DNA of 64,000 nucleotides from Halioxenophilus sp. WMMB6 (GCF_033283405.1 NZ_JAWMQR010000007.1:148807-212806); one strand, 5' to 3'; shown: positions 25,137 to 63,450, numbered from the stretch's first letter. Notes: generated by a model not told the origin, from the letters alone. Translations and numbers: made by a program.

Positions 25137-25175
25137 TTTATATCGCGGCTCATTATTAAATGGAAAAATTATTTG

Positions 25176-25209
25176 ACAGTGGTTTTTCAGTGAGTAGAAT
25201 GCCGCCCAA
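25176..25209 (+). promoter_or_regulatory. candidate sigma70 promoter TTGACA-N16-TAGAAT upstream of rtcB leader
   Basis: Near-consensus hexamers seen directly. Followed by a 9-codon uORF with AGGAGA RBS, a 7-bp hairpin (cttccga...tcggaag) and a T7 run before the rtcB RBS. Confidence 0.35.
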
Positions 25210-25418
25210 ATTCAATTCTTTACAGGAGAACTTTTTAATGCCAGCAGCGAGTAAAAGCAGTAGCTAGTTCTTCCGAGTGTTTCATTCGGAAGGGCCATCA
25301 TTCCTTCCGAGTCAGATCTAAAAGCCCTGACCGGATCTCCAGTTGGGGTTTTTTTATGCCCGTTTGTCGGCCAATAAGCCCCGTATTATTTATACTCATT
25401 TTTGAGTAGGGACTCTTT

Positions 25419-26627
25419 ATGCCTATTAAAATGGAATTAAACAAAAATAGCGGCAACGGTGGTAAGCCGGTAAAAATTTATACGCATGACATTGAACAGA
25501 CAGCACTTACGCAGTTAAAAAATATTGCGCAACTACCATTTATTCACTCCCATATTGCCGCTATGCCGGATGTGCATACTGGTATAGGGGCAACGGTCGG
25601 TTCAGTGATTCCCACCGTGGCTGCCATTATTCCCGCCGCCGTGGGTGTTGATATCGGCTGTGGCATGATGGCAGTACAGCTCTCATTAAACTCGGCACAA
25701 CTGCCCGATGGTTTGGCGGCTATGCGCAGTGCTATTGAGCGGGCCGTGCCGGTGGGGCTGGCAGCACACAAAACGGTTGCTGTGCGGGAGAGCGCCTGCA
25801 AGCGCTTGCAGCCGCAGGTAGAGGCGCTGTTTGAACGCCACCCGCAATTGTTAAAAATGCAGAAGCACCCCAGGCAAACCTGGGCCAAGCAGGTCGCCAC
25901 GTTGGGTTCGGGTAACCACTTTATTGAAGTGTGTATCGACGAATCGAAAAAAGTGTGGGTGATGTTGCACAGTGGTAGTCGCGGGATTGGTAACAGCATC
26001 GGCCGTTACTTTATTCAGTTGGCCAAAAAAGATATGCAAGGTCATATTCATCATCTACCCGACAGAGACCTGGCGTACTTTGCTGAAGGCAATGACCATT
26101 TTGCCGACTATGTGGCGGCGGTGGAGTTTGCCCAGGAGTACGCGCGGATCAATCGGGAAGAGATGATGAAACTGGTGTTGCGCGCTATACAGCCTTTTCT
26201 ACCGGGCTTTGTTCTGCAAAAAGAGGCGATTAATTGTCACCATAATTATGTGGCGCGTGAACACCACTTTGATGCTGACGTGTATGTTACCCGCAAGGGG
26301 GCCATCAATGCCGAGCATGGGCGCTTGGGAATTATTCCCGGCAGTATGGGGGCTAAATCCTACATTGTGCGCGGTAAGGGTGAAGCGGAATCATTTTGCT
26401 CCTGCTCGCACGGTGCCGGCCGCACCATGAGCCGTACTGCGGCGAAAATGCAGTTTCGGCGCGAGGATTTAATTGCTCAGACCCGCGGTGTTGAGTGTCG
26501 TAAGGATGCTCACGTCATTGATGAAATTCCCGCGGCCTACAAAGATATCGACGAGGTGATGACCAATCAAACTGACCTGGTTGATATCGAACACACACTT
26601 AAGCAGGTACTTTGTGTGAAGGGCTAG
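25419..26627 (+). CDS. rtcB: RNA-splicing ligase RtcB (3'-phosphate/5'-hydroxyl RNA ligase)
   Basis: 402 aa. Conserved RtcB motifs (DVHTGIG, GSGNHF, HSGSRGIG, CSHGAGR) seen directly in the translation. Confidence 0.9.
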   Translation: MPIKMELNKNSGNGGKPVKIYTHDIEQTALTQLKNIAQLPFIHSHIAAMPDVHTGIGATVGSVIPTVAAIIPAAVGVDIGCGMMAVQLSLNSAQLPDGLAAMRSAIERAVPVGLAAHKTVAVRESACKRLQPQVEALFERHPQLLKMQKHPRQTWAKQVATLGSGNHFIEVCIDESKKVWVMLHSGSRGIGNSIGRYFIQLAKKDMQGHIHHLPDRDLAYFAEGNDHFADYVAAVEFAQEYARINREEMMKLVLRAIQPFLPGFVLQKEAINCHHNYVAREHHFDADVYVTRKGAINAEHGRLGIIPGSMGAKSYIVRGKGEAESFCSCSHGAGRTMSRTAAKMQFRREDLIAQTRGVECRKDAHVIDEIPAAYKDIDEVMTNQTDLVDIEHTLKQVLCVKG

Positions 26628-28126: not shown

Positions 28127-30562
28127 CTAATTACCCGCCAGCGAATATTCCTGCTGGAGCTGGTTGTTGTGTGTCAGCAACCACTCAATAAATTCTGCGT
28201 TAGGCATGGGCTTGGCGTAAAGGTAACCCTGGCCGAGGTCGCAGTTGAGCCTTTTCAAGATTTCGGCTTCGGCCGGGTATTCAATACCCTCCGCCGCCAC
28301 CAGTTTATTGAGCTCGTGGCTCAGTTCTATAGTCGCCTTAACAATGCTGTGGTTGCGCTGATTGCTATCGATGCCACGCACAAAACTTTGATCAACCTTC
28401 AGTACATCAATGGGAAACTTGGCGAGGTAGGCCAGTGATGAGTAGCCAGTGCCAAAGTCGTCCAGGGCAATGGCAAAGCCAAAATTGACCAGCCGTTGCA
28501 GGATAGTCTGGCTGATTTCCGGGTCGGTCATCAGTGCCGATTCGGTAATTTCCAGGTGCACTCGTTCGGGGTCAACCTGGTAGTTGCGAGTGCGCTCGAT
28601 AAGGTAATCGGGTAGCTGTTGATCAAACAGATTGCGGGCAGAGAGGTTGATCGACATTTTCAGATCCAGACCCTGTTGCTGCCAGGATTGCAGATCTTTG
28701 AGCGAGAGATCGATAACCTGCCGGGTGAGCGGTTGAATGTGGTCGGTCGCCTCCAGGTAGGGCATAAAGATCGCCGCGCTTAAAAAGCCCTTGGTGGGGT
28801 GGTGCCAACGTACCAGGGATTCAGCAGCGGTACAGCGGCCACTGAGCATATCGATGAGCGGCTGGTGGTACATCTCAAACTGCCCCTGCTCCAATGCCTC
28901 TGCCATACCGGCCAGAAGCTCTACCCGGGTTCTCACTTCGTTGTCGGTATCTTTGTTGTAAACGGCGATGGTTTCGTGGCCCTTTTTCGCCTGATACATG
29001 GCGATGTCGGCACAGCGCAGCAATTCGTGGCTATCCAACTCATTGGCGGCGGCCTCAACCACGCCGATAGAGGCGGCGGCCTTCAGGCTGATATCTTTAA
29101 TAACGAAGCGCTCTTCAAACAGGCTGGCTAACAGCTTGGCAAACGTCAGGCCGCCATCGAGATGCGTCTGCTGACTAACGACCACCACAAATTCATCGCC
29201 GCTTAAGCGAAAGGCCCGGGTGTCGCTGGATGGTAGGGCTTGATAGAGGCGATTGGCCAGCTGTTTAAGCAGCTCGTCGCCGATGATGTGGCCGAAGGTA
29301 TCGTTAACCTCTTTAAAGTGGTTCATGTCCAACAGCATGACGATAACCTTGGCGGCCTTCAGGTTGGCGACATAATCATGATAGGCGCGGCGGTTACCCA
29401 GCCCGGTTAGGCCATCGTATTTGGCCAGAAAGGCGAGCTCTGCCACATGCTTGGCATTGGCCACACTTAGCCCAACCGCGTGGCTAATGGTTTCAAACAG
29501 CGCCATCTCCTGATTGCTAATGGCCCGATGTGTGGCAGAGACCAGGACAATGGCACCACTGGCTTCGCCATTGCTCACCAGCGGAATGGCAACGGCAGTC
29601 TTGGGCAGATAGTTAAAAAATTCAATCAGGTGGCTGGCATCCACTTGCGCACCGTTCAGTTCGTGCTGAATCACTATCTCCTGCCGGGTTACCGACTGCC
29701 CGGAGATACTCTTTTCCATACTCACCAGTGGTGCATTGGCCAGTTCGCTGGCGGCGGCGTTGCGGCCAAAGGCACCGACGATGGTCAGGTTTTTGCCGAC
29801 GTTGTCGAGCTGCAGCATCAAGCCGTCGTCCCAGCCGTGCTTGGCCACAAAGGGCGGTAGTATGCGCTCACCCAGGTCGCGCACACTGTTGATATCCTGC
29901 AGTTGGGTGGTGATGCCGTGGGAGAGGGAGAGGATTGCCAGGTGATCATTGAGCTCTTGCTGCGACCGCAAAAAACAGATCAGCAGCAGCAGCCCCATCG
30001 AGAGGGTGGTGGCGGTGGCGAGTGTCAGGTGGCCGTACTCGTGCATTAAAGGCTGGGTGGCCGGAACCGACAGGCCAACGATAGTCATGCCCAGCATCAT
30101 AAAGCCGCGCGCCAGGAATACGCTGGCGGTGATTCTTTGCAGCACGCTTTTGGACCATAACGACCAGGCCACATGGGTCATGGCCAAGGTGGTGACCAGA
30201 GTGACGTAGAGGTGGATGATGGCAATGGAGCCGATGGCCACCCAAAGCATAAACAGCGCCATTACTAAGATCGCAAAAAGGCGTGGCCCCTTGCTGGCAT
30301 GGCGGTTTAGCCGAAACTCAAAGGCCCCCCTGGAGAGGGTGTAGACCAACGCCGAAAAGATAACGCCAGACAGCAGGGTGATGGGAAGGGAACCGTTTAG
30401 GCGCGGCGTGGCCAGCAGCTCGTCGAGCACAATAGTGAACGGGGTCAAGGCAAAGGCGGCGCCCCACCACAGAAGGTAGCGCCGCTCACGGTCGGCCCAC
30501 CACATAATAAGCAGTACAATAGCGGAGATCAGGTGGGTGAAGGGGATAAAGAAAATATACAT
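28127..30562 (-). CDS. membrane sensor with GAF-like, GGDEF and EAL domains (c-di-GMP cyclase/phosphodiesterase)
   Basis: N-terminal about 8 TM segments. GGDEF domain (RLSGDEFVVV) and EAL domain (EAL...DDFGTGYSSL) motifs present. Confidence 0.85.
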   Translation of the reverse strand: MYIFFIPFTHLISAIVLLIMWWADRERRYLLWWGAAFALTPFTIVLDELLATPRLNGSLPITLLSGVIFSALVYTLSRGAFEFRLNRHASKGPRLFAILVMALFMLWVAIGSIAIIHLYVTLVTTLAMTHVAWSLWSKSVLQRITASVFLARGFMMLGMTIVGLSVPATQPLMHEYGHLTLATATTLSMGLLLLICFLRSQQELNDHLAILSLSHGITTQLQDINSVRDLGERILPPFVAKHGWDDGLMLQLDNVGKNLTIVGAFGRNAAASELANAPLVSMEKSISGQSVTRQEIVIQHELNGAQVDASHLIEFFNYLPKTAVAIPLVSNGEASGAIVLVSATHRAISNQEMALFETISHAVGLSVANAKHVAELAFLAKYDGLTGLGNRRAYHDYVANLKAAKVIVMLLDMNHFKEVNDTFGHIIGDELLKQLANRLYQALPSSDTRAFRLSGDEFVVVVSQQTHLDGGLTFAKLLASLFEERFVIKDISLKAAASIGVVEAAANELDSHELLRCADIAMYQAKKGHETIAVYNKDTDNEVRTRVELLAGMAEALEQGQFEMYHQPLIDMLSGRCTAAESLVRWHHPTKGFLSAAIFMPYLEATDHIQPLTRQVIDLSLKDLQSWQQQGLDLKMSINLSARNLFDQQLPDYLIERTRNYQVDPERVHLEITESALMTDPEISQTILQRLVNFGFAIALDDFGTGYSSLAYLAKFPIDVLKVDQSFVRGIDSNQRNHSIVKATIELSHELNKLVAAEGIEYPAEAEILKRLNCDLGQGYLYAKPMPNAEFIEWLLTHNNQLQQEYSLAGN

Positions 30563-30859
30563 TTTTATAATCGTTATTTTTCGAACATCACAGCATAACC
30601 AGAATAATTTAAAGCTACCACCCGAGGCAAAACAAAATATCGCTATTGTGGAAAACTATAGCAGCGAATTTGACGCCACTAATGCAATTCCTCAAGTAAA
30701 GTTGACCGGCTGGCGGAAAATTTTTGAATGCGTATTAAGTAATGAACATTCAAGGAGTGCGCACTGATGCCATTTTTATGGTGGCCTTAATCCGTTAATT
30801 GCCAGCCTGTAGTTGGATAAAAAGTGCTTAACTGTTGAATTGATTGCCGGTGGCCTGCG

Positions 30860-30901
30860 CTGATGGCTGATGGCTGATGGCTGATGGCTGATGGCTGATG
30901 G
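30860..30901. repeat. heptanucleotide microsatellite (CTGATGG)x6
   Basis: Six perfect tandem copies seen directly. Confidence 0.95.
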
Positions 30902-30989
30902 TTATTCCGAATTTTTACAAATCTTGATGCAAGCGTTGCGGGAAGAGTTCTGTGAGCTGGCAGCGGGTGCCGGTTCTACCGGTACCTAA

Positions 30990-31320
30990 TTAAAAACCTT
31001 AACCACTTCAATAAGACCGACAATGTGCCGGTTAAACTCGGCCAGCTGTTGGGCGGGAATCCAATATTCCCGATGGTCGCTGCCGCCGGCAGATTACTCG
31101 GTAAAGTTTGCGAGATAGTCGGCGTCCACCGCAAAGCGGGTTACAAAGCTGCAACCACTTTCGCGTACATTCCAGTCACGCGCGATTTTAATAGCCTAGG
31201 AAATGGTGGCAACCGGGTGGAAAAAGGGCTGTTGGGGAAGCCGCGGCGGCCAATGTCGCCAGCCACAGGCTGTTACCAGGGCGAGTTCCGGTGGGCCGAT
31301 ATGGAGTGACGGTTCGTACC
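30990..31320 (-). pseudogene. decayed gene remnant readable through two in-frame stops (TAG, TAA)
   Basis: Minus-strand frame reads ...HIGPPELALVTACGWRHWPPRLPQQPFFHPVATIS*AIKIARDWNVRESGCSFVTRFAVDADYLANFTE*SAGGSDHREYWIPAQQLAEFNRHIVGLIEVVKVFN*. Protein-like composition across the stops. No intact ORF on either strand. Confidence 0.25.
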
Positions 31321-31392
31321 ATAAGAGCGCCTGCTTGGCTTATTCTGGTTGAGTCTATTTGGGTTGTTTTAGTAAGTGGCAAAACCACCACA

Positions 31393-31421
31393 AAAAACCC
31401 GTCCACCAACGTGGACGGGAA
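31393..31421 (-). terminator. rho-independent terminator of SPFH gene (cccgtccac-gttg-gtggacggg + T6 on minus strand)
   Basis: 9-bp GC-rich stem and U-run immediately after the stop at 31424. Confidence 0.65.
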
Positions 31422-31423
31422 AG

Positions 31424-32578
31424 CTATTGCGCGCTTGTGGCTGGTGCTAGTTTCACCAGGCCGTGTAGCACACTGTCGAGGCCACCATAAACCGAAATTT
31501 TGTCGATCTTGGTGGTGATCCTTTCCAGCGCTTCCAGCTCTTTCAAACGCAGCAACACCGGGTTGTTCTCCATCACTTTGGCGGTGTTGTGCAGCGAGCG
31601 CATCGCCTGGGTCTCTTCATGGCGTTTAATCAGGTTGGCTTCAGCCTCCTTTTGCGCCTCCACTACCTGGTTTAAGATCTGCTTCATGTCGCCAGGCAAA
31701 ATAATATCTTTCACCCCAACACTTAACAGGTTGATACCGTAATCGGTCACCCGGTTGCGCACGCCCTCGGCAATCACCGCGTTTAACAGATCCTTGTCGA
31801 CTAACAGTTCATCCAGGTTTTTAGTACCTACCGCTTCCCGTAAGCGCAGTTGCAGCTCCAAGTACAAGAAGTTGAGGTAGTCCTTCAGCTGCAGTGCCAC
31901 CGATTTTGCATCGACAATTTTAAAGCTGGCGGTCAGGTTGATACGCAGGCTCACGCGATCCTTGGTGAGAATCTCCTGCCCGCTAACGTCCAGAGTTTGC
32001 AGGCGCAAATCGACCAGCTTAACGCTGATTGAGCGGTTGTATAACCAAAATCCGTAACGGCCAGTGGTCAACATCTTCTCCAGCTTGCCGTTAACAAACA
32101 GCATGCCCACCTGCTCATCGGGTACCTCGCTGTAACTGATGGCCTGTGCCAGGGTGCGGTTGTTAGCCAGGGTGGCTCCCCGGCCCAACAGGCCAATCAC
32201 GTCGTCGCCGATTTGATAATCGCTGGTGATATCCACCACACTGACGCTAACCTGCTCACCGCCGCGCCAGGTGGCCAACAGGCCCCCGGGTGGCAGAATA
32301 TCCGCCAGCTTGCCATCGCGATAGACGAGGCCGACTTCGCGGTCGGTCAGCTGCACCGCATCCACCACCCCGTCAAACAGCGGCTGGTACTGGCGCAATA
32401 AAAATTTCAGTCGCGGGTGGTTAAATTCCACGGCGGTAATATCGTAGTGCTCCACCCGCAAATCCTGCCCTAATGCCCACAGTCGTTGTCGACCGGGCAT
32501 TAAAATGGTTGCCAGGCGGTTGCGTCGGTAAACCAGGGCCCGCTCGTTATCGGCAACGTCGATCATTTTCCATAACAT
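31424..32578 (-). CDS. SPFH/band-7 (stomatin-like) domain protein with two extra N-terminal partial SPFH-like modules, no obvious TM anchor
   Basis: GGAGG RBS. C-terminal canonical SPFH region (KLVDLRLQTLDV...VIAEGVRNRVTDYGINLLSVGVKDIILP...EAQKEAEANL). Three repeats of an (E/R)xVGLVYRxGKLxxIL-like module. Confidence 0.8.
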   Translation of the reverse strand: MLWKMIDVADNERALVYRRNRLATILMPGRQRLWALGQDLRVEHYDITAVEFNHPRLKFLLRQYQPLFDGVVDAVQLTDREVGLVYRDGKLADILPPGGLLATWRGGEQVSVSVVDITSDYQIGDDVIGLLGRGATLANNRTLAQAISYSEVPDEQVGMLFVNGKLEKMLTTGRYGFWLYNRSISVKLVDLRLQTLDVSGQEILTKDRVSLRINLTASFKIVDAKSVALQLKDYLNFLYLELQLRLREAVGTKNLDELLVDKDLLNAVIAEGVRNRVTDYGINLLSVGVKDIILPGDMKQILNQVVEAQKEAEANLIKRHEETQAMRSLHNTAKVMENNPVLLRLKELEALERITTKIDKISVYGGLDSVLHGLVKLAPATSAQ

Positions 32579-32880
32579 AATCGTTCCTCCATTAATGATC
32601 GTTTCTCTATTATTAATTTAAAGCGAGGCTCACTGAGCCGGGTCGCGGCTAACGGTTTGGCTTGTTCAGGCGAAGACTCAGGTGTTTGCCGGCAGCCATA
32701 GGCGATGACAAAAGCCACCCGACGGTTGAAGACAAAACCAGAAGCCTGCGCGTGCACAAGCCACCCACCATGAGCGGTTACCCGGCTCGGGTTGGTTTGA
32801 ACCGCATTACCTGAACTGCCGGCAAAGACGGAATCTGGCCAACCGTGAACCTCTAGTTGATTTATAAACAAGCACCATAA

Positions 32881-32940
32881 GCTTGTGAGGACTCGAACCT
32901 CTGGGTCTCTCGACCTCTACCATTGAGCCGTTTACACGGC
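32881..32940 (-). other. tRNA-like remnant (D-arm-like GCTCAATGGTAGAG plus T-arm-like GAGGTTCGAGTCCTC, no anticodon arm)
   Basis: Motifs seen directly. Only about 13 nt between the D- and T-arm motifs. Followed by a CAAGC-TTATGGT-GCTTG hairpin. Confidence 0.4.
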
Positions 32941-32942
32941 GG

Positions 32943-33016
32943 AGTTTTTGGCGGGATTCGAACCCGCTACCGATAGATTATTAATCTACTGCTCTACCCG
33001 AATGAGCTACAAAAAC
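32943..33016 (-). tRNA. non-canonical tRNA-like gene: full 74-nt cloverleaf, anticodon loop TTAATAA (anticodon AAT), acceptor stem GUUUUUG/CAAAAAC, no encoded CCA
   Basis: Manual fold: 7-bp acceptor, D-arm GCTC-ATTCGGGTA-GAGC, anticodon stem GTAGA/TCTAT (part of the perfect palindrome TAGATTAATAATCTA), variable loop CGGTA, T-arm GCGGG-TTCGAAT-CCCGC. Confidence 0.45.
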
Positions 33017-33145
33017 GGTGGTTTATGTCCACCCGGCAATTGGTACACACAACGGTAGTACCGCCTGCGCCGGACTGGCCTTTGGAACCAGTGCCGCTAA
33101 TTACCGGGCGAGAGATAAACTCTGTGTGGCCAATGCCTAAAAAAA

Positions 33146-33703
33146 TTAGGCTTGAGGCCAAATCCGGTTTCCGGAAAATTGCTTCTCCAGATACTCCATT
33201 TGATCCGCCAGTACTTGGTGTTGGGCCAAAAACAGCCCTTCACTCCGGTTGGGGCAGAAAGGCACCGCCAGTAACACCATGCCCGCCTGTTCCGGTGTAC
33301 GGTCGGCTTTAAAGTGGTTGCAGCGCTTACAGGCGGCCACCACATTTTGCCAACGGTTTTGGCCGCCCTGTGCGCGCGGCACAATGTGGTCGCAGGTGAG
33401 CTCACGGGCTAAAAAGCGCTGACCACAATACATACAACGGTAGTTATCCCGGCGAAACAGCAGCCGGTTGCACAAAGGTGGCGCCGGCTGTGCTTGCTGC
33501 TCCCGGCCGCGAGTGGCGATAATGGCGCGCAGAGCAATGTGGGAGCGCTGGCCGCTTGCCCGATTTACACCGCCGGTCAGGTTGAAAATTAACTCGCCCA
33601 GCTCCCACTGCACCTGATTTTTTACATAGAGCAGCGCTGCCTCCGAGCGGGATAGCCAGGCGGTGGCGGTGCCGGTGCTATCCAGGCGCAAGATGCTAAC
33701 CAT
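33146..33703 (-). CDS. HNH endonuclease family protein
   Basis: AGGAGA RBS. HNH motif CMYCGQRF...CDHIVPRAQGGQNRWQNVVAACKRCNHFKADR seen directly. Confidence 0.8.
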   Translation of the reverse strand: MVSILRLDSTGTATAWLSRSEAALLYVKNQVQWELGELIFNLTGGVNRASGQRSHIALRAIIATRGREQQAQPAPPLCNRLLFRRDNYRCMYCGQRFLARELTCDHIVPRAQGGQNRWQNVVAACKRCNHFKADRTPEQAGMVLLAVPFCPNRSEGLFLAQHQVLADQMEYLEKQFSGNRIWPQA

Positions 33704-33721
33704 GGTCTTCTCCTGGTATGG

Positions 33722-34012
33722 TTACCGATAAAAATTTGCGCCATCGATGGATCGATAGCCGCAACTGTTTAAAAGCGTGCCGAGCTGTGCCCGCCGGCTG
33801 CGATCAGATTCGGTCAGCACCACTCTGTTCGGTAGCCGTGATCGGCTTTGCGCCCAGCGTAAAACCACACAGCTGTTGTCCCGTCCGTGTAGTGAAAAGT
33901 CGACCGCCAACACCGAGATGACCAATTCGTTCAGCGCCTTTTTAGCGCTGCGGCTGTCTCTGCAGTAGAGGTCTGCACTGAACACAGCGCGTTTACCCAA
34001 AGCGACTCGCAT
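33722..34012 (-). CDS. hypothetical protein (96 aa), co-oriented 18 nt upstream of HNH gene
   Basis: Very strong SD (AAGGAGGAG) before ATG 34012. Lies directly downstream of the tRNA-Lys gene. No recognisable domain. Confidence 0.45.
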   Translation of the reverse strand: MRVALGKRAVFSADLYCRDSRSAKKALNELVISVLAVDFSLHGRDNSCVVLRWAQSRSRLPNRVVLTESDRSRRAQLGTLLNSCGYRSIDGANFYR

Positions 34013-34051
34013 TGCTTCTCCTCCTTGATGTAAAAATTGCCAATAGTTAAT

Positions 34052-34126
34052 TGGTTGGAGGTATGGGAGTCGAACCCATCTGTGCCGGAGTAAAAGTCCG
34101 GTGCTCTGCCGCTAAGCCAACCCCCA
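34052..34126 (-). tRNA. tRNA-Lys (anticodon UUU), CCA encoded
   Basis: Manual cloverleaf: acceptor TGGGGGT/ACCTCCA, anticodon arm CCGGA-CTTTTAC-TCCGG, T-arm ATGGG-TTCGACT-CCCAT, discriminator A then CCA. Confidence 0.8.
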
Positions 34127-34168
34127 ATAAAAATCCTTGGTCAATTTGTCTGCTTTACTGCCGAATAA

Positions 34169-34243
34169 TGGCAGCAGCCTCAGGGCTCGAACCTGAAATA
34201 CGTGAGTCAAAGTCACGTGTGTTACCCATTACACCAGGCTGCT
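34169..34243 (-). tRNA. tRNA-Gln (anticodon UUG), CCA encoded
   Basis: Manual cloverleaf: acceptor AGCAGCC/GGCTGCT, D-arm GTGT-AATGGGTA-ACAC, anticodon arm CGTGA-CTTTGAC-TCACG, T-arm TCAGG-TTCGAGC-CCTGA, discriminator G then CCA. Confidence 0.8.
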
Positions 34244-34279
34244 GGAGTACTAAATTTAATGGTGATCAATATCATTGGC

Positions 34280-34366
34280 TGGCAGCGGTGAGATTCGAAC
34301 TGACACGGCGCCGCAAGTCACCGCACGGATTAGTAATCCGCTGCCGTACCGTTCAGCCATGCTGCC
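34280..34366 (-). tRNA. type II (long variable arm) tRNA-like gene with anticodon loop TTACTAA (anticodon ACT; Ser-like), mismatches in acceptor (A7:C66) and T-stem (C:C); possible pseudo-tRNA
   Basis: Manual fold: GGCAGCA-TG-GCTG-AACGGTA-CGGC-A-GCGGA-TTACTAA-TCCGT, about 20-nt variable arm, GTCAG-TTCGAAT-CTCAC, CGCTGCC-A. No CCA. Confidence 0.4.
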
Positions 34367-34410
34367 AATAATCTTCCCGTTTGAGTTTTCTGGCTCGCTT
34401 GGCCATAAAA

Positions 34411-34439
34411 AAACCCCGGGGTTGCCCACCGGGGTTTTT
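34411..34439. terminator. bidirectional terminator-like hairpin (A7-ccccgg-ggttgccca-ccgggg-T5)
   Basis: Seen directly, upstream of the minus-strand tRNA array. A second 7-bp hairpin ccggaagg...ccttccg follows. Confidence 0.5.
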
Positions 34440-34639
34440 GCGAACCGGAAGGCATCAGCCTTCCGCGGAATGCTGATATTAAAACAAAATAAGCGCCTGG
34501 CTTAGGCCGAAGCTCTGGTCGTCACACAGGTGGCCACTGGTCGCTATTAACAGTGTTTTGGCAGCGTGGACGGCAATCGCTTGCAGGTGACCTATTGGTT
34601 GTTGGTTCATCGCTATTCTTAATTGGGTAGTCATTAATT

Positions 34640-34678
34640 TGTTTTCTGTTTTCTGTTTTCTGTTTTCTGTTTTCTGTC
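34640..34678. repeat. heptanucleotide microsatellite (TGTTTTC)x5.5
   Basis: Seen directly. Followed by hairpin ctcgct-tgcgatagc-agcgag plus T5 (plus-strand terminator-like). Confidence 0.95.
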
Positions 34679-35396
34679 TGTGCTATTTCTTAGCCCTCGC
34701 TTGCGATAGCAGCGAGCTTTTTAAACGATACGGCCCCAAAAATATTTTGGCAATGCGAATTATTTTGGCGTTCTTGTTGAATTTATACTTTGGTTATAAC
34801 GCCACCAGGGCTGCCATTTTTGCTAGGGCGAGCGCTGGCCTATCGCACTGTTTGACGATATTGCAGACGAGGGTGTTGGTAGAAGATCTGGATTTATTGC
34901 AGAGCTTCCCCGCCGGTAAAAATGGTTGCTTCATATAGAAATAATTAGTCTAAGCCCTTTCTCTCTATTGCCTCGATTTACGTTTATTGATTCAACTTTC
35001 AGGTGAAAAAAAACCCGAAAAGCGTGTTGGCCTTCCGGGTTTCTCGATCTGTGAATGGTCTGTTGAGACGGCGACTGCGAGAGCTGGAAGGCGGTGCCTG
35101 CCAGAACTCAATTCCTACAGGCAAATTATGGGCGCTGGAAATCCTCCTGAGTGAGATTTAACACTCGGGCGGCCCTGGGGTAACAACTGTTATGTTTGGT
35201 GATTGAAAAAATCATTGCTGTAGCTTCTAAAAAAGTGGGCGGATTATAGGTGAGCTATTTAACCGGCACAACCAGTGCTGTGGTGGCGGTTTTGGTGGGC
35301 GAGCGGATTTACACGATAAGTGGTTGCCATTGATGATTTAACGCCGCTGGGGTCGGTTTAACCCGCAAGCAGGGCTTGCGGGTGGGTGGCGCAGGA

Positions 35397-37541
35397 TCAG
35401 AACTGCACCTGCACGGTGAAATCCAGTGAGCGGCCAATACCGGGCAGGCTGGTAAAGGGTTGATTGTGGTCTCCCCCAATCCAACCGGCCAGGTAAACAC
35501 CACCCAAGGGTTGTTCATAACGCTCATTGAACAGATTATTAACCGCGGCGCTCACCGTTAGTTGGCGCCACTGCCGTTGGCTCTGCAGGTGCACCAGGGT
35601 GTAGCTGTCGCTGGTGGGCTCCAGGCGCAACTCATCCACCCGCTGCTTGTCGTCGACCCATTCCATGGTCAGGCGGTTGCGCCAGCCGGCACTGGCGTAC
35701 TCTAATGCGACGCTGATATTGAGCGGCATGATGTGGTAGAGGTCGCTGCCATCGTCCCGGCGTTCGGCCCGGGTGTAGGCCAGGTGCGTGGCCAGGGTTA
35801 ATACCCCCTCGCCCGAACTAAACAGTTGCCTCTGACCATCAATCTCAATGCCGTAGAGGGTTGCGTCCAGGTTGGTGAATTGCAGCTCCGGGCGGGTGAC
35901 CGCCGGTGATTGGCGCGGGTGAAAGCTGCCCACCACCTCGGCATCGATAAAATCATCTACCCGGGTGTAGTAGGGGGCCAGGCTGAGCTTATTGTTGTCG
36001 TCGCTTTGCCATTGATAGGTGGCGGCCAGGCTGTGGGCCACCTCTGGGTTGAGGTCGATATCGCCAATGTAGCCGTTGCCATCGCCGTACCAGCCGATCA
36101 TGGCGCTGGCCATGGGGCTGCGCCCCCAGCTGTAACGCTCGTACAGGTTGGGTGAACGGGTTTTGCGGCCGTAACCGAGCTCCAGGCTCTGCTGGCTGTC
36201 GATGGCGTAGCCAACCAGGGCGGTGAGGTCGAAGTTGTCGTCCCGGCGGTTGCGGTGGCTGCTGTTAAAGGCCAGCGCGGCTGCGGCATCGGGGTTGCTG
36301 GGCATGATGTTGTAGGGCTGCACCGGGTCTGTGGTCATCGCCACCCGTTCGTAGCGCACTCCCAGTTGCGAGCGCCACTGTTCGCTCAGGCGGTTATCGC
36401 TCTCGGCATAGAGGGCGTAGCGGGTGCGTTCGCCGTTGTTGATGTTCACATAGGTATTGGGGCCCATCATCATGGAGCCCGGCACCGCCGGCCACCAGTC
36501 ATCGAGGGTGAATTGGTGCAGTTCGTGGCCCAGGCGCAGCTGGTTGCCCGCACCATAGGGCAGGGTGGCGGCAATGGTGTAACCCAGGTCGCGTCCCTCG
36601 GTGAACATGGGCATGGTGCCCGGCTTCTCCTCGCTGAAGAAGCCCATGGCGTGCTCCACATCTTGCCAGCTGACGCGGCTATCGAGCAGCCCCCAGTCGA
36701 ATTGACGCTGATAGTTGAGGTTGGCGCCGGTAGTGCGGTTGTCGACCATATCCATGTACTGGTTGGGGAAACCCTGGTAGGGGATCTGCTGGTGGTTGAG
36801 TTTGAGCGTCAGCGATTCCACCTCGCTTCGCCAACCCAGAGTGAGCCCGTGGTTTTCGCTTTTATAGAGGGTATCTTGCACCTTGTCGCCGCTGCTGTCG
36901 CGGTAACTGTCGGCCTCGCTGGTGCTGCCGCTGTAGGCCAGGCTAAGCCGGTCGTTGGCCACCCCGGCCCGCAGCGTCAGCCCCTGTTGGTGGCTATTGT
37001 TGCTGTAGTTGAAGGCCAGCGCCAGGTTGGTCTGCAGTGACTCGCCGGCCCGGGCGAACTGGGGTGGTTCAGAGTTGATAACAATGGTGCCGCCAATGCT
37101 ATCGCCGCCGCTGCTGACCGGGGTAATGCCGGCCATTACCTCCACGCTGTGTACCCGGCTGGCATCGACGTAGGAGAGTGGCGGGTTCATATGGTTGGCG
37201 CAGGCGGAGGTGGTCTCGGCACCATCGACCAGCAGCTTGATGCGGTCGTCGTTCAGGCCGCGCACAATTGGCAGGCTGGCCACCCCACCGCCACCGGCAA
37301 AATCGACCTTTTGTAAGCCCGGCAGGTTGGCGGCATTGCCGCTGCCCTGTAGCTGTGATTGTGCGTGGGCAGTAACCTCCACCTGTTCAAGCAGTGGCTC
37401 GGCTGTGGGGTTGGCTGTGGTTGCCGTTTGGGCGGTGGCCAGGCTGCTGGTGATTAACAGTGGCAGGGTACGCAGAGTGAAGCCGGTGGTTCTGCTCTTG
37501 GCCCCTATCGGCATTGCAAGCTGAGTCGGTTTGGCCACCAT
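35397..37541 (-). CDS. TonB-dependent outer-membrane receptor
   Basis: GGGGGA RBS before ATG 37541. Signal peptide. Plug domain and a C-terminal beta-barrel ending with terminal F (…TVQVQF). Confidence 0.85.
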   Translation of the reverse strand: MVAKPTQLAMPIGAKSRTTGFTLRTLPLLITSSLATAQTATTANPTAEPLLEQVEVTAHAQSQLQGSGNAANLPGLQKVDFAGGGGVASLPIVRGLNDDRIKLLVDGAETTSACANHMNPPLSYVDASRVHSVEVMAGITPVSSGGDSIGGTIVINSEPPQFARAGESLQTNLALAFNYSNNSHQQGLTLRAGVANDRLSLAYSGSTSEADSYRDSSGDKVQDTLYKSENHGLTLGWRSEVESLTLKLNHQQIPYQGFPNQYMDMVDNRTTGANLNYQRQFDWGLLDSRVSWQDVEHAMGFFSEEKPGTMPMFTEGRDLGYTIAATLPYGAGNQLRLGHELHQFTLDDWWPAVPGSMMMGPNTYVNINNGERTRYALYAESDNRLSEQWRSQLGVRYERVAMTTDPVQPYNIMPSNPDAAAALAFNSSHRNRRDDNFDLTALVGYAIDSQQSLELGYGRKTRSPNLYERYSWGRSPMASAMIGWYGDGNGYIGDIDLNPEVAHSLAATYQWQSDDNNKLSLAPYYTRVDDFIDAEVVGSFHPRQSPAVTRPELQFTNLDATLYGIEIDGQRQLFSSGEGVLTLATHLAYTRAERRDDGSDLYHIMPLNISVALEYASAGWRNRLTMEWVDDKQRVDELRLEPTSDSYTLVHLQSQRQWRQLTVSAAVNNLFNERYEQPLGGVYLAGWIGGDHNQPFTSLPGIGRSLDFTVQVQF

Positions 37542-62909: not shown

Positions 62910-63450
62910 ATTTTCCGGGGCTCCTGCCCCGGAAAATTGTCGCCACGCACAAGCGGACGCAATTGTAAAAATTGCTGGTTGTGCGTGACTCGCATTGGCG
63001 CTGCCAATGGTGGTGCATCCCTGCACCACACGCACAACTAAACTCAGTGCCCAGGGCTCCTGCCCCGGAAAATTGTCGCCACGCACAAGCGGGTGCAATT
63101 GTAAAAATTGCTGGTTGTGTGTGACTCGCATTGGCGCTGCCAATGGTGGTGCATCCCTGCACCACACGCACAACTAAACTCAGTACCCAGGGCTTCTGCC
63201 CCGGAAAATTGTCGCCCCGCACAAGCGGGCGCAATTGTAAAAATTGCTGGTTGTGCGTGACTCGCATTGGCGCTGCCAATGGTGGTGCATCCCTGCACCA
63301 CACGCACAACTAAACTCAGTACGCAGGGCTCCTGTCCCGGAAAATTGTTGCCACGCACAAGCGGGCGCAATTGTAAAAATTGCTGGTTGTGCGTGACTCG
63401 CATTGGCGCTGCCAGTGGTAGTGCATCCGTGTAGCGCGCATTTAATCCGG
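62910..63450. repeat. tandem array of four about 136-bp repeat units (period 136, copies differ by a few SNPs), each with 3 or more internal stem-loops
   Basis: Unit landmarks ctcctgcccc at 62921, 63057, 63193, 63329. Internal hairpins ccgggg-ctcctg-ccccgg, gcaatt-gtaaaa-aattgc and gtgca-tccc-tgcac seen directly. Confidence 0.9.

What the first reader, a model, noticed from the sequence alone, without database searches (positions are those of the whole stretch)
30560..34700. Minus-strand islet mixing canonical tRNAs, non-canonical tRNA-like genes, an HNH endonuclease and an SPFH protein, bracketed by two heptamer microsatellites
Everything between the GGDEF-EAL gene and the TonB receptor is co-oriented on the minus strand and looks foreign or mosaic. 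In transcription order it contains:
- a Ser-like type II pseudo-tRNA with anticodon ACT, then tRNA-Gln(UUG) and tRNA-Lys(UUU);
- a 96-aa ORF with a near-perfect SD and an HNH endonuclease;
- a 74-nt tRNA-like gene with anticodon AAT and an all-A/U acceptor stem;
- a tRNA remnant lacking the anticodon arm, then a 280-nt leader;
- an SPFH protein with triplicated N-module, then a decayed ORF with in-frame stops.
The block is flanked by (CTGATGG)6 at 30860 and (TGTTTTC)5 at 34640, followed by about 950 bp of non-coding DNA.
A34 anticodons other than Arg-ACG are not normal bacterial decoders. tRNA-like elements combined with an HNH nuclease suggest an integrative or defence-like module, or a tRNA-targeting/repair system, that I cannot match to any described family. 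This is inference.
Basis: partly seen in the sequence, partly recalled or inferred. Interest (0 to 1): 0.8.

Follow-up and report, generated by a model that had tools for sequence, protein, structure and literature searches.

The report
Shrunken tRNA-array and RNA-repair island
The odd tRNA/HNH/SPFH cluster is a cut-down copy of a mobile island seen in other marine bacteria, joining a spare-tRNA array to parts of a predicted RNA-repair system whose "tRNA-Ile(AAU)" is a tRNA-shaped non-coding RNA, so it is a real variant of described systems, not a new kind.

Summary
ARAGORN and Rfam find tRNA-Ser(ACU), Gln(UUG), Lys(UUU) and a tRNA-like "Ile(AAU)" on the minus strand, with ORF96, an HNH gene, an SPFH gene and both heptamer repeats.

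The island matches described families:
- Intact relatives carry 18-27 tRNAs in the same order: tRNAs, ORF96, HNH, tRNA-like gene, SPFH, sometimes RlaP or an RNA ligase, sometimes GOLLD RNA. This is a tRNA array unit (L-array) with its usual HNH gene.
- ORF96 belongs to the cRec receiver family, predicted to process cyclic phosphates.
[quoted passage not shown] Across 87 relatives its anticodon loop varies freely: 32 "anticodons" and loops of 6-8 nt. So A34 here is not a decoding anomaly.
- The "tRNA remnant" is a conserved hairpin cluster.
- The 950 bp "non-coding DNA" is the island's conserved promoter and leader.

Two results go beyond what I could find described. A ~110-nt structured RNA domain with strong covariation precedes b7a-tRNAs in 59 loci and has no Rfam match. 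An rtcB ligase gene 4.8 kb away has a Ser/Lys-rich leader-peptide attenuator that shares a hairpin with the array leader.

Verdict: a reduced, composite variant of known systems. Function is inferred.

The parts
35243..35271 (-). Sigma-70-type promoter of the island (TTGTGC, 17 nt, TATAAT)
   Evidence: The -10 box and the TTG of the -35 box are conserved in W, L081, L082 and L083. Coordinates. Activity is inferred.
34991..35235 (-). Conserved structured leader RNA ('element A') ending in an intrinsic terminator (35006-35042). Its segments CUGGCAGGC / GCCUUCCAG / CCGGAAGGC can pair in alternative ways.
   Evidence: nhmmer finds it only in the five islands of this type. RNAalifold predicts 41 pairs, 7 with compensatory changes. 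The tRNA-Met that follows it in L081 and L002 is cleanly deleted in the window.
34725..34753 (-). Second promoter-like site (TTGCCA, 17 nt, TATCGT)
   Evidence: Found by the consensus scan. The sequence is conserved in all four aligned islands. Activity was not tested.
34640..34677 (.). (TGTTTTC)5.4 microsatellite, inside the leader and just 5' of the small ORF
   Evidence: TRF. It aligns with an A-rich AGAAACA stretch in L081 and L082. L002 has (TAAATACT)5.2 at the same place.
34479..34634 (-). 51-codon upstream ORF that stops 11 nt before hairpin B
   Evidence: An ORF of 39-44 codons ends just before the same hairpin in L081, L082 and L002. Translation was not tested.
34407..34467 (-). 'Element B': hairpin CGGAAGGCUGAUGCCUUCCG followed by an intrinsic terminator
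   Evidence: Conserved in L081, L082 and L087. The hairpin motif occurs only twice in the window; the other copy is in the rtcB leader.
34276..34367 (-). Class II tRNA-Ser with anticodon ACU, G73 and an encoded CCA
   Evidence: ARAGORN. Rfam 40.4 bits. The nearest array tRNA is Ser(GCU) at 68% identity.
34169..34243 (-). Array tRNA-Gln(UUG) with A1-U72, G73 and an encoded CCA
   Evidence: 85-89% identical to the array tRNA-Gln of L081, L002 and L082.
34052..34126 (-). Array tRNA-Lys(UUU) with an encoded CCA
   Evidence: 91% identical to the array tRNA-Lys of Zooshikella (L083).
33722..34012 (-). ORF96, a cRec-type receiver-domain protein (cyclic-phosphate processing Rec)
   Evidence: Full-length homologs at 45-53% identity lie directly upstream of HNH in L002, L081 and L083; in L082 the homolog is frame-shifted (two pieces at 52% and 60%). 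16 of 22 family members hit Pfam PF20274, best E 5e-15. The window copy itself scores below the Pfam threshold.
33146..33703 (-). HNH endonuclease, 185 aa
   Evidence: Pfam HNH_5 and HNH. All 55 invariant family residues are retained. Homologous to Anabaena all8564, which sits next to the trn array (44% over 98 aa).
33020..33130 (-). ~110-nt structured RNA domain immediately 5' of the b7a-tRNA
   Evidence: Covariance model R1 scores it at 67.9 bits, E 1.6e-14. Across 37 sequences 92.3% of cells pair, against 75.1% in shuffles (0 of 500 reach it) and 30-38% when the partners are slid. No Rfam match.
32943..33016 (-). Band-7-associated tRNA-like RNA (b7a-tRNA), called 'tRNA-Ile(AAU)', with no encoded CCA
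   Evidence: 91% identical to the L002 copy, whose loop reads CAU. The same position and strand upstream of SPFH are seen in nearly all of the 80 metagenome loci that have enough upstream sequence.
32868..32940 (-). Conserved hairpin cluster or mini tRNA-like element: a GAGA-capped hairpin, a T-arm-like hairpin and two further hairpins
   Evidence: Conserved in six sequences with compensatory changes. It sits where other loci carry a second b7a-tRNA.
32579..32867 (-). Conserved leader between the RNA elements and SPFH. ORF102 (32563-32871) is not conserved and is probably spurious.
   Evidence: Alignment A2. nhmmer. ORF102 has no tblastn match in the relatives.
31424..32578 (-). SPFH/Band-7 (stomatin-like) protein with a duplicated N-terminal module
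   Evidence: Pfam Band_7. 67-70% identical to the L002, L081 and L082 proteins. 45% identical to SPFH proteins inside rtcR-rtcBA operons. Stomatin matches in the PDB. Repeats.
31392..31419 (-). Intrinsic terminator marking the 3' end of the conserved island
   Evidence: blastn similarity to the relatives ends at 31442.
25160..26627 (+). Possible partner outside the finding: rtcB RNA ligase gene (25419-26627) with a promoter-like site, a 9-codon leader ORF (MPAASKSSS, 25238-25267) and an attenuator-like leader
   Evidence: Pfam RtcB, E 9e-126. 56% identical to the RtcB of an SPFH operon. Alternative folds. Shared GGAAGG hairpin. The functional link is inferred.

Best explanation
The region from about 35270 to 31392 on the minus strand is a reduced copy of a horizontally spread island. 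The island joins two described modules.

(1) A tRNA array unit (L-array) with its usual HNH endonuclease gene. Here it is preceded by a cRec gene and cut down to three spare tRNAs: Ser-ACU, Gln-UUG and Lys-UUU.

(2) The band-7-associated tRNA/SPFH module of predicted RNA-repair systems.

Proposed working (inferred):
- Two terminator-containing leaders keep the array silent until translation is disturbed.
- The spare tRNAs then top up pools depleted by anticodon nucleases or other translational stress.
- cRec opens 2',3'-cyclic phosphate ends.
- The SPFH oligomer, bound to the b7a RNA (5' domain plus tRNA-like body), scaffolds or targets a ligase, probably the RtcB encoded 4.8 kb away.

The 'AAU' anticodon has no decoding role. 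The role of the HNH nuclease is unresolved: it may spread the array by homing or attack DNA.
For: Shown:
- The order tRNAs, ORF96, HNH, tRNA-like gene, SPFH recurs in L002, L081 and L082, with 18-27 tRNAs. L081 adds two RlaP genes. L083 has cRec, HNH and an RNA ligase.
- The window's tRNAs are orthologous to array tRNAs at 85-91% identity.
- The upstream 'non-coding' DNA is collinear with the leaders of those islands. One tRNA-Met is cleanly deleted.
- Flanking genes differ in every genome.
- The HNH protein is homologous to Anabaena all8564, which sits beside a 24-tRNA array, and to an ORF in a jumbo-phage tRNA cluster.
- GOLLD RNA lies inside the arrays of L081 and L093, as in mycobacterial arrays that also carry HNH.
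- In almost every one of the 80 SPFH loci with upstream sequence, 1-3 tRNA-like genes lie 250-500 nt upstream on the same strand. Many of these loci are rtcR | b7a - SPFH - rtcB - rtcA - CCA-type NTase - RlaP operons.
- ORF96 belongs to the cRec family.

From the literature:
- L-arrays are silent and are induced by translational stress. In Anabaena the trn array, an HNH gene, a slipin gene and rtcB form one regulon.
- b7a-tRNA is described next to Band-7 and RtcB.
- cRec is linked to RNA ligases.
- RlaP adds nucleotides to cleaved anticodon loops in vitro.
Against: - No expression or biochemical data exist for any part of this island. The b7a-tRNA has never been validated experimentally.
- The window lacks RlaP and has no adjacent ligase. 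RtcB is separated from the island by two unrelated genes and a pseudogene, and is convergent with it.
- RtcR is absent from the window.
- Only 3 array tRNAs survive, so any effect on tRNA pools would be small.
- 78 of 80 genomic HNH homologs have no tRNAs within 5 kb, and none of those 78 loci shows a cRec ORF. The HNH family is therefore not strictly tied to arrays.
- The window's own ORF96 does not reach the Pfam cRec threshold.
Confidence: 0.7

Rival explanations
1. The island is an inert, decaying leftover of a once larger tRNA-array island. It is no longer expressed or useful, and its odd anticodons are simply mutations in dying genes.
For: - Most of the array, the tRNA-Met after leader A, the tRNA-Arg between ORF96 and HNH, GOLLD and RlaP are all missing relative to L081.
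- Ser carries ACU where array orthologs have GCU. The b7a loop differs at two of seven positions from L002.
- A pseudogene lies next door.
- Two terminators precede the tRNAs.
Against: - ORF96, HNH and SPFH are full length and keep the residues invariant in their families.
- The RNA 5' domain still scores 67.9 bits.
- The tRNAs keep intact stems and CCA ends.
- GC content is close to that of the flanking genes, which I read as long residence with intact genes.
- Terminators upstream of the array are conserved in the intact relatives too, and known L-arrays are silent until induced.
Confidence: 0.2
2. The island is phage-derived cargo that counters tRNA-cleaving defences. In this reading the tRNAs, including A34 variants, are nuclease-resistant replacements, and the HNH nuclease is a homing enzyme that spreads the array.
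For: - Full-length HNH homologs occur in the jumbo phages Salicola SCTP-2 (inside a tRNA cluster) and Ralstonia RsoM2USA.
- GOLLD, a phage-associated RNA, lies inside the arrays of relatives.
- The homing proposal and the anti-defence view of arrays are both published.
- Three independent changes of position 34 to A are seen in array tRNAs.
Against: - No SPFH relative was found in 2.9 million viral contigs.
- No phage structural or integrase genes appear in the loci examined.
- No att-like repeats flank the island.
- This reading concerns origin and overlaps with the main explanation.
Confidence: 0.25
3. The AAU gene is a genuine tRNA-Ile that decodes AUU, or AUU/AUC/AUA after deamination to inosine. 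The ACU gene would likewise be a new kind of decoder, giving this bacterium unusual A34 decoding.
For: - Both genes score as tRNAs: 67.2 and 40.4 bits.
- The AAU gene has a 7-nt loop with U33.
- Ser-ACU has G73, a long variable arm and CCA. It could be charged with serine and read AGU (sequence reading; identity rules are from general knowledge).
Against: For AAU:
- Orthologs 76-91% identical have CAU in the loop.
- The family of 87 sequences shows 32 'anticodons', 13 loops of 6 or 8 nt, U33 in only 61, and CCA in only 20.
- It always sits between a structured 5' domain and an SPFH gene.

The decoder reading remains open for Ser-ACU only.
Confidence: 0.04
4. The island is an anti-phage defence system with the HNH nuclease as effector, of the Septu/PtuB or retron-associated type.
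For: PADLOC matches to PtuB models (best E 9.5e-10) and a weak NCBIfam match to a retron HNH.
Against: - The matches cover only the ~55-residue HNH motif (residues 81-143).
- No PtuA-type ATPase, reverse transcriptase or msr/msd is nearby.
- ORF96 and SPFH have no meaningful PADLOC match.
- Equally good matches go to the HNH domains of Cas9 and IscB.
Confidence: 0.05

Closest known systems
tRNA array units / L-arrays with an associated HNH endonuclease (Anabaena pCC7120delta trn operon and all8564; mycobacterial arrays with HNH and GOLLD)
   Same: - Co-oriented supernumerary tRNAs with encoded CCA, spread by horizontal transfer.
- A homologous HNH gene sits at or inside the array.
- GOLLD lies inside the arrays of relatives.
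- Terminators or silencing elements lie upstream of the array.
- In Anabaena the array is co-regulated with rtcB and a slipin gene.
   Different: - The window keeps only 3 array tRNAs, against at least 20 in the published definition (abstract of PMC4758250).
- It is physically fused to a cRec gene and a b7a-tRNA/SPFH module.
- Its leaders look like RNA attenuators rather than TrcR-type repressor sites. This is untested.
Band-7 / b7a-tRNA RNA-repair module (Burroughs & Aravind 2016, as quoted in bioRxiv 10.1101/312249; PaFlo8 in the P. aeruginosa rtc locus, PMC13086221)
   Same: - An SPFH protein with a tRNA-like gene directly upstream on the same strand.
- Homologs at 45% identity sit in rtcR | b7a - SPFH - rtcB - rtcA - RlaP operons.
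   Different: - The window has no adjacent ligase, cyclase, RlaP or RtcR. RtcB is 4.8 kb away and convergent.
- The second tRNA-like unit has become a hairpin cluster without an anticodon arm.
- The ~110-nt 5' domain is not mentioned in the sources I could read. I could not open the 2016 paper.
Ro60 (Rsr) / Y RNA (YrlA) module of rsr-yrlBA-rtcBA operons
   Same: - An RNA with a tRNA-like module encoded next to a scaffold protein and RtcB, proposed as a cofactor for RNA repair.
- b7a RNAs give sub-threshold YrlA matches of 28-34 bits.
   Different: - The protein is SPFH, not Ro/TROVE.
- No Ro-binding stem formed by the 5' and 3' ends. The extra domain lies wholly 5' of the tRNA-like unit.
- YrlA scores are far below the gathering score of 69.
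cRec (PF20274) - RNA ligase gene pairs of jumbo phages and bacteria (Iyer et al. 2021, PMC7824862)
   Same: - A small stand-alone divergent receiver domain.
- In Zooshikella (L083) the order is cRec, HNH, RNA ligase, matching the published cRec-ligase linkage.
   Different: In the window cRec is paired with HNH only, with no ligase beside it. Any catalytic activity is a prediction.

Membership tests
tRNA array unit / L-array | At least 20 tRNA genes at a density of at least 2 per kb (definition in the abstract of PMC4758250, seen) | tested here: not met
   The window has 3 array tRNAs plus 1 tRNA-like gene. Relative L081 has 27 tRNAs in about 5.5 kb, L082 has 20 and L002 has 19. The window is therefore a remnant of an array, not an array by this definition.
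tRNA array unit / L-array | Genes in one orientation, close enough to be co-transcribed, and non-periodic | tested here: met
   Ser, Gln and Lys are all on the minus strand with spacers of 32 and 42 nt.
tRNA array unit / L-array | Horizontally acquired and supernumerary: patchy distribution with different genomic contexts | tested here: met
   The same module lies beside T6SS genes (L083), rpoD-dnaG (L081) and a MerR gene (L082). None shares the window's flanking genes. Whether the tRNAs duplicate housekeeping genes could not be tested, because the rest of the genome is not in the window.
tRNA array unit / L-array | An associated HNH (homing-type) endonuclease gene | tested here: met
   The HNH protein is 44% identical over 98 aa to all8564, which lies beside the 24-tRNA Anabaena array.
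b7a-tRNA / Band-7 RNA-repair module | A Band-7/SPFH-domain protein | tested here: met
   Pfam Band_7, 110 bits against a cutoff of 23.6.
b7a-tRNA / Band-7 RNA-repair module | A tRNA-like gene directly upstream of the Band-7 gene on the same strand | tested here: met
   The gene at 32943-33016 starts 438 nt before the SPFH start. The same layout holds in nearly all SPFH loci that have upstream sequence.
b7a-tRNA / Band-7 RNA-repair module | Operonic linkage to an RNA ligase (RtcB or another) and end-healing or NTase genes | tested here: inconclusive
   No RlaP, RtcA or RtcR is in the window, and no ligase is adjacent. RtcB lies at 25419-26627, 4.8 kb away, convergent, with two unrelated genes and a pseudogene between.
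cRec (PF20274) | Match to the cREC_REC profile | tested here: inconclusive
   The window's ORF96 gives no Pfam hit at E <= 0.1. It matches family members by phmmer down to E 2e-20, and 16 of the 22 aligned members hit PF20274, best E 5e-15.
cRec (PF20274) | Conserved aspartates of the receiver fold | tested here: met
   D14, nearly invariant in the family, and D38 are present in the window protein. Catalysis was not tested.
HNH endonuclease (PF01844 / PF14279) | Profile match and retained catalytic motif | tested here: met
   HNH_5 at 60.4 bits and HNH at 53.5 bits. D105, H106, N120 and N129 and the Cys pairs are invariant in the alignment that includes the window protein.
Canonical elongator tRNA (for the 'Ile-AAU' gene) | A conserved 7-nt anticodon loop with U33, an anticodon fixed among orthologs, and a 3' CCA end (encoded in the gene in all neighbouring array tRNAs) | tested here: not met
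   Orthologs carry CAU. The family shows 32 anticodons, 13 of 87 loops that are not 7 nt, U33 in 61 of 87 and CCA in 20 of 87. Array tRNAs score 137/137, 136/137 and 129/137 on the same three measures.
Septu (PtuAB) or retron HNH defence systems | A partner ATPase (PtuA), or a reverse transcriptase with its ncRNA | tested here: not met
   Only the HNH motif matches. No such partner is among the ORFs of 28-38 kb.
GOLLD RNA (RF02032) | Match at or above the Rfam gathering score | tested here: not met
   No match in window 29500-36500 even at E <= 1. Present in L081 (198 bits) and L093 (156 bits).
Ro/Y RNA (YrlA, RF02553) | A YrlA match above gathering score and an adjacent Rsr gene | tested here: not met
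   No window match. Relatives score 28-34 bits against a gathering score of 69. No TROVE protein was found.

The most novel reading that the evidence does not exclude
The b7a RNA, made of the newly defined ~110-nt 5' domain plus a tRNA-shaped body with a fast-changing anticodon loop, may act as a bait or sensor for anticodon nucleases. It would be held on a cytoplasmic SPFH cage, and its loop would evolve under diversifying selection.

In this genome it would form one stress circuit with two other parts:
- spare array tRNAs, including a Ser-ACU variant that may resist cleavage;
- an rtcB gene switched on by a leader peptide (MPAASKSSS) that stalls when tRNA-Ser(AGY) or tRNA-Lys(AAA) is depleted.

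The array leader and the rtcB leader would be co-regulated through their shared GGAAGG hairpin.
Probability: 0.2. Interest if true: 0.8.

Novelty: new variant of a known kind. Interest (0 to 1): 0.5.

Why it matters
- It links two systems studied separately: cryptic tRNA arrays and the predicted Band-7/b7a-tRNA RNA-repair modules. They sit in one physical island in several marine Gammaproteobacteria. This fits the Anabaena finding that a tRNA array, an HNH gene, a slipin gene and rtcB share one stress regulon.
- It gives testable RNA elements for a system that has never been validated experimentally: a covarying 5' domain, a hypervariable anticodon loop and attenuator-like leaders.
- It warns annotators that 'tRNA' calls with A34 or stop anticodons upstream of SPFH genes are not decoders.

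Tried and rejected
- An exact-protein look-up of the HNH protein found no record.
- The word-index search with ORF96 found only itself. The exhaustive HMMER search was needed to find its family.
- Burroughs & Aravind 2016 could not be opened by DOI or PMC id. Its content is cited only through papers that quote it.
- RlaP, RNA ligase and other neighbours of the relatives have no trace in the window.
- The pseudogene has no Pfam match. It is not part of the conserved island.
- A sigma-54 promoter upstream of the b7a-tRNA was considered. In the window's clade the TGGCAC-like string is one strand of an RNA helix. True sigma-54 sites lie further upstream in the RtcR-type loci.
- Att-like direct repeats, an integrase and a GC anomaly were looked for and not found.
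- No SPFH relatives were found in viral contigs.
- The array leader A is found only in the five closest islands. That is too few sequences for a firm structure.
- No structure prediction was run. The useful alignments contain sequences that the tool does not accept.

Full report
**1. The observation**

ARAGORN finds only four tRNA genes in the 64-kb window. All are on the minus strand and all lie inside the flagged region: Ser(act) 34276-34367, Gln(ttg) 34169-34243, Lys(ttt) 34052-34126 and Ile(aat) 32941-33016. All four pass the Rfam tRNA gathering score.

- ORF96 at 33722-34012, with an AAGGAGGAG Shine-Dalgarno sequence.
- A 185-aa HNH_5 protein at 33146-33703.
- A 384-aa Band_7 protein at 31424-32578.

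Both heptamer repeats are perfect. They are the only heptamer arrays in the window. The 'decayed ORF' is a real pseudogene at 30986-31327. It is 68% identical to intact 115-aa hypothetical proteins and has two in-frame stops. The HNH protein is 100% identical to one from Halioxenophilus sp. WMMB6.

**2. The island is a reduced tRNA array unit**

The HNH family is large. At least 593 loci were found among species-representative genomes. Of the best 80, 78 have no tRNA within 5 kb and share no conserved neighbour.

The closest homologs (57-64% identity) are different:
- A Cellvibrionaceae chromosome (L002) and two metagenome contigs (L081, L082) carry 18-27 co-oriented tRNAs. These are followed by an ORF96 homolog, tRNA-Arg(tct), HNH, a 'tRNA-Met(cat)' and an SPFH protein 67-70% identical to the window's. 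L081 then has two RlaP genes.
- Zooshikella (L083) has three tRNAs, then ORF98, HNH and an RNA ligase.

The window's tRNAs are orthologous to these array tRNAs. Gln is 85-89% identical and Lys is 91% identical.

The roughly 950 bp of 'non-coding DNA' upstream is collinear with the leaders of these islands. In transcription order it contains:
- a conserved sigma-70-type promoter (35243-35271);
- a structured leader ending in a terminator (34991-35235);
- a clean deletion of the tRNA-Met that follows this leader in L081 and L002;
- a second promoter-like site;
- a small ORF whose position is conserved;
- a hairpin plus terminator (34407-34467).

Flanking genes differ in every genome. There are no att-like repeats, and GC content is close to that of the flanking genes. 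I read this as an old horizontal acquisition that has since shrunk.

The HNH protein is homologous to Anabaena all8564. That gene sits next to the 24-tRNA trn array of plasmid delta. Another homolog lies in a tRNA cluster of jumbo phage SCTP-2. GOLLD RNA lies inside the arrays of L081 and L093. The combination of array, HNH and GOLLD is already described in mycobacteria, and GOLLD is known to lie near tRNA islands.

**3. The 'tRNA-Ile(AAU)' is a band-7-associated tRNA, not a decoder**

Eighty metagenome loci encode full-length relatives of the SPFH protein at 40-75% identity. Almost all that have upstream sequence carry 1-3 tRNA-like genes 250-500 nt upstream on the same strand. Many of these loci are classical RNA-repair operons: rtcR, then divergently the tRNA-like genes, SPFH, rtcB, rtcA, a CCA-type nucleotidyltransferase and RlaP.

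This is the arrangement reported by Burroughs & Aravind (2016) as the band-7-associated tRNA. I know it only as quoted in bioRxiv 10.1101/312249, which also notes that it has not been validated experimentally. P. aeruginosa PaFlo8 is likewise embedded in the rtc locus.

| Feature | b7a sequences (87 unique) | Array tRNAs (137 unique) |
|---|---|---|
| Distinct 'anticodons' | 32 | not counted |
| Anticodon loops that are not 7 nt | 13 | 0 |
| U33 present | 61 | 136 |
| Encoded CCA | 20 | 129 |

Close relatives differ mainly in the anticodon loop. The rate is 0.176 differences per site in the loop against 0.036 in the body, over 17 pairs that are not independent. The window copy is 91% identical to the L002 copy. 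Two of their differences are in the loop, CUCAUAA against UUAAUAA.

The A/U-rich acceptor stem is a family trait. The 'remnant without an anticodon arm' (32868-32940) is a conserved cluster of four hairpins. It includes a GAGA-capped hairpin and a T-arm-like hairpin, and it sits where other loci carry a second b7a unit.

**4. A structured RNA domain with no Rfam match**

Immediately 5' of the first b7a-tRNA lies a conserved element of about 110 nt (window 33020-33130).
- In a 37-sequence alignment, RNAalifold predicts 18 pairs, 11 of them with compensatory changes.
- 92.3% of cells pair, against 75.1% in column shuffles (0 of 500 reach the observed value) and 30-38% when the partners are slid.
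- A covariance model finds exactly one copy upstream of SPFH in 59 sources, 22 of them outside the seed. It finds none in HNH-only loci, the Anabaena plasmid or the phage.
- Rfam 15 has no match for it.
- In RtcR-type loci a sigma-54 promoter lies upstream of the element, so it should be transcribed with the tRNA-like units.

I could not check whether the 2016 paper describes this domain.

**5. ORF96 and HNH**

ORF96 has a small family of 26 representative clusters, all 96-99 aa. Sixteen of 22 aligned members match Pfam cREC_REC, although the window copy itself does not. cRec was proposed to process 2',3'-cyclic phosphates and is linked to RNA ligase genes. The L083 gene order agrees with that linkage.

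Among the loci held, cRec homologs occur only beside array-linked HNH genes. The HNH domain is of the IscB/Cas9 type, and its N-terminal domain has no match. Its role stays open. Homing that spreads the array has been proposed for Anabaena and mycobacteria. HNH-Rnl2 fusions have been read as DNA-attack modules.

**6. A ligase nearby**

The window encodes RtcB at 25419-26627 (Pfam E 9e-126). It is 56% identical to the RtcB of an SPFH operon. It lies 4.8 kb from SPFH and is convergent with it. A beta-lactamase-family gene, the GGDEF-EAL gene and the pseudogene lie between them.

Its leader has these parts:
- a TTGACA-17-TAGAAT promoter-like site;
- a 9-codon ORF, MPAASKSSS, with codons AGT AAA AGC AGT AGC;
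- alternative hairpins and a terminator.

The free leader folds into a form that sequesters the 5' arm of the terminator. When the segment just after the ORF is masked, as a terminating ribosome would do, a GGAAGG...CCTTCC hairpin and the terminator form instead.

That hairpin motif occurs only twice in the window, once here and once in the array leader. The number expected by chance is 0.12, and 2 of 100 shuffles reach two. In 1.49 Mb of related loci it otherwise marks the same array-leader element in L081, L082 and L087, plus two unrelated sites. Co-regulation of rtcB and the array is therefore a lead, not a result.

**7. The microsatellites**

The upstream repeat lies inside the leader, just 5' of the small ORF. 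The downstream repeat lies about 490 bp beyond the SPFH terminator, past the pseudogene. Neither marks the edge of the island.

L002 also has repeats at comparable places: (TAAATACT)5 at the homologous leader position and (TGTA)20 directly after SPFH. Slippage-prone or phase-variable sites remain possible, but this was not tested.

**8. Verdict**

But it belongs to described kinds. It is a composite, reduced variant: a remnant of a tRNA array unit, a cRec-HNH gene pair and a b7a-tRNA/SPFH module.

All functions are inferred from gene context and the literature. The parts I could not find described are:
- the physical fusion of the two modules;
- the 5' RNA domain;
- the anticodon-loop hypervariability;
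- the attenuator-like leaders.

Noticed in passing
window 25160-26627 (+): A stand-alone rtcB gene. Its leader holds a 9-codon ORF (MPAASKSSS; five of its eight codons after the start are Ser-AGY or Lys-AAA) and mutually exclusive hairpins ahead of a terminator. It looks like a ribosome-dependent attenuator that could sense shortage of tRNA-Ser or tRNA-Lys.
   Followed up: partly
window 25288-25308 and 34447-34464; L081 2780-2796; L082 4205-4221; L087 106-123: The GGAAGG-loop-CCTTCC hairpin followed by a terminator occurs only twice in the window, in the rtcB leader and in the tRNA-array leader. In related islands it marks the same array-leader element. It may be a shared regulatory motif.
   Followed up: partly
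L081 5218-5699; L093 3524-4005: Full-length GOLLD RNA (198 and 156 bits), each with an embedded tRNA, lies inside the tRNA arrays of two related islands. It is absent from the window.
   Followed up: partly
L082 4850-4924; L095 6991-7065; window 34276-34367: Three separate array tRNAs have A at position 34: Trp CCA to ACA, Cys GCA to ACA, and Ser ACU where array orthologs have GCU. The rest of each tRNA is intact. This may be chance, decay, or selection for altered anticodon loops.
   Followed up: partly
L002 2413-2454 and 7344-7425: The L002 island has (TAAATACT)5.2 at the same leader position as the window's heptamer repeat, and (TGTA)20.5 directly after SPFH. Simple repeats recur at comparable places with different units.
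   Followed up: partly
window 34479-34634; L081 2630-2764; L082 and L002 equivalents: A small ORF of 39-51 codons ends just before the hairpin and terminator that precede the array in all four islands. The L081 and L082 peptides are clearly homologous. It may be a leader peptide.
   Followed up: partly
L081 1425-1922 (-): A second, inverted partial copy of the hairpin cluster and leader, with a truncated 54-codon SPFH N-terminus, lies upstream of the L081 array. It lacks the 5' domain and the b7a-tRNA.
   Followed up: no
window 30986-31327 (-): A pseudogene of a widespread 115-aa protein family that has no Pfam model. Some sources label members 'ADP-ribosylation/crystallin J1'. It lies just after the SPFH terminator and is not found in the related islands.
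   Followed up: partly
window 62918-63428: A tandem repeat of 3.8 copies of a 136-nt unit, 96% matching.
   Followed up: no
L081 3244-3468: A sub-threshold tmRNA-like match (25 bits, E 2e-6) in a 240-nt gap between array tRNAs.
   Followed up: no
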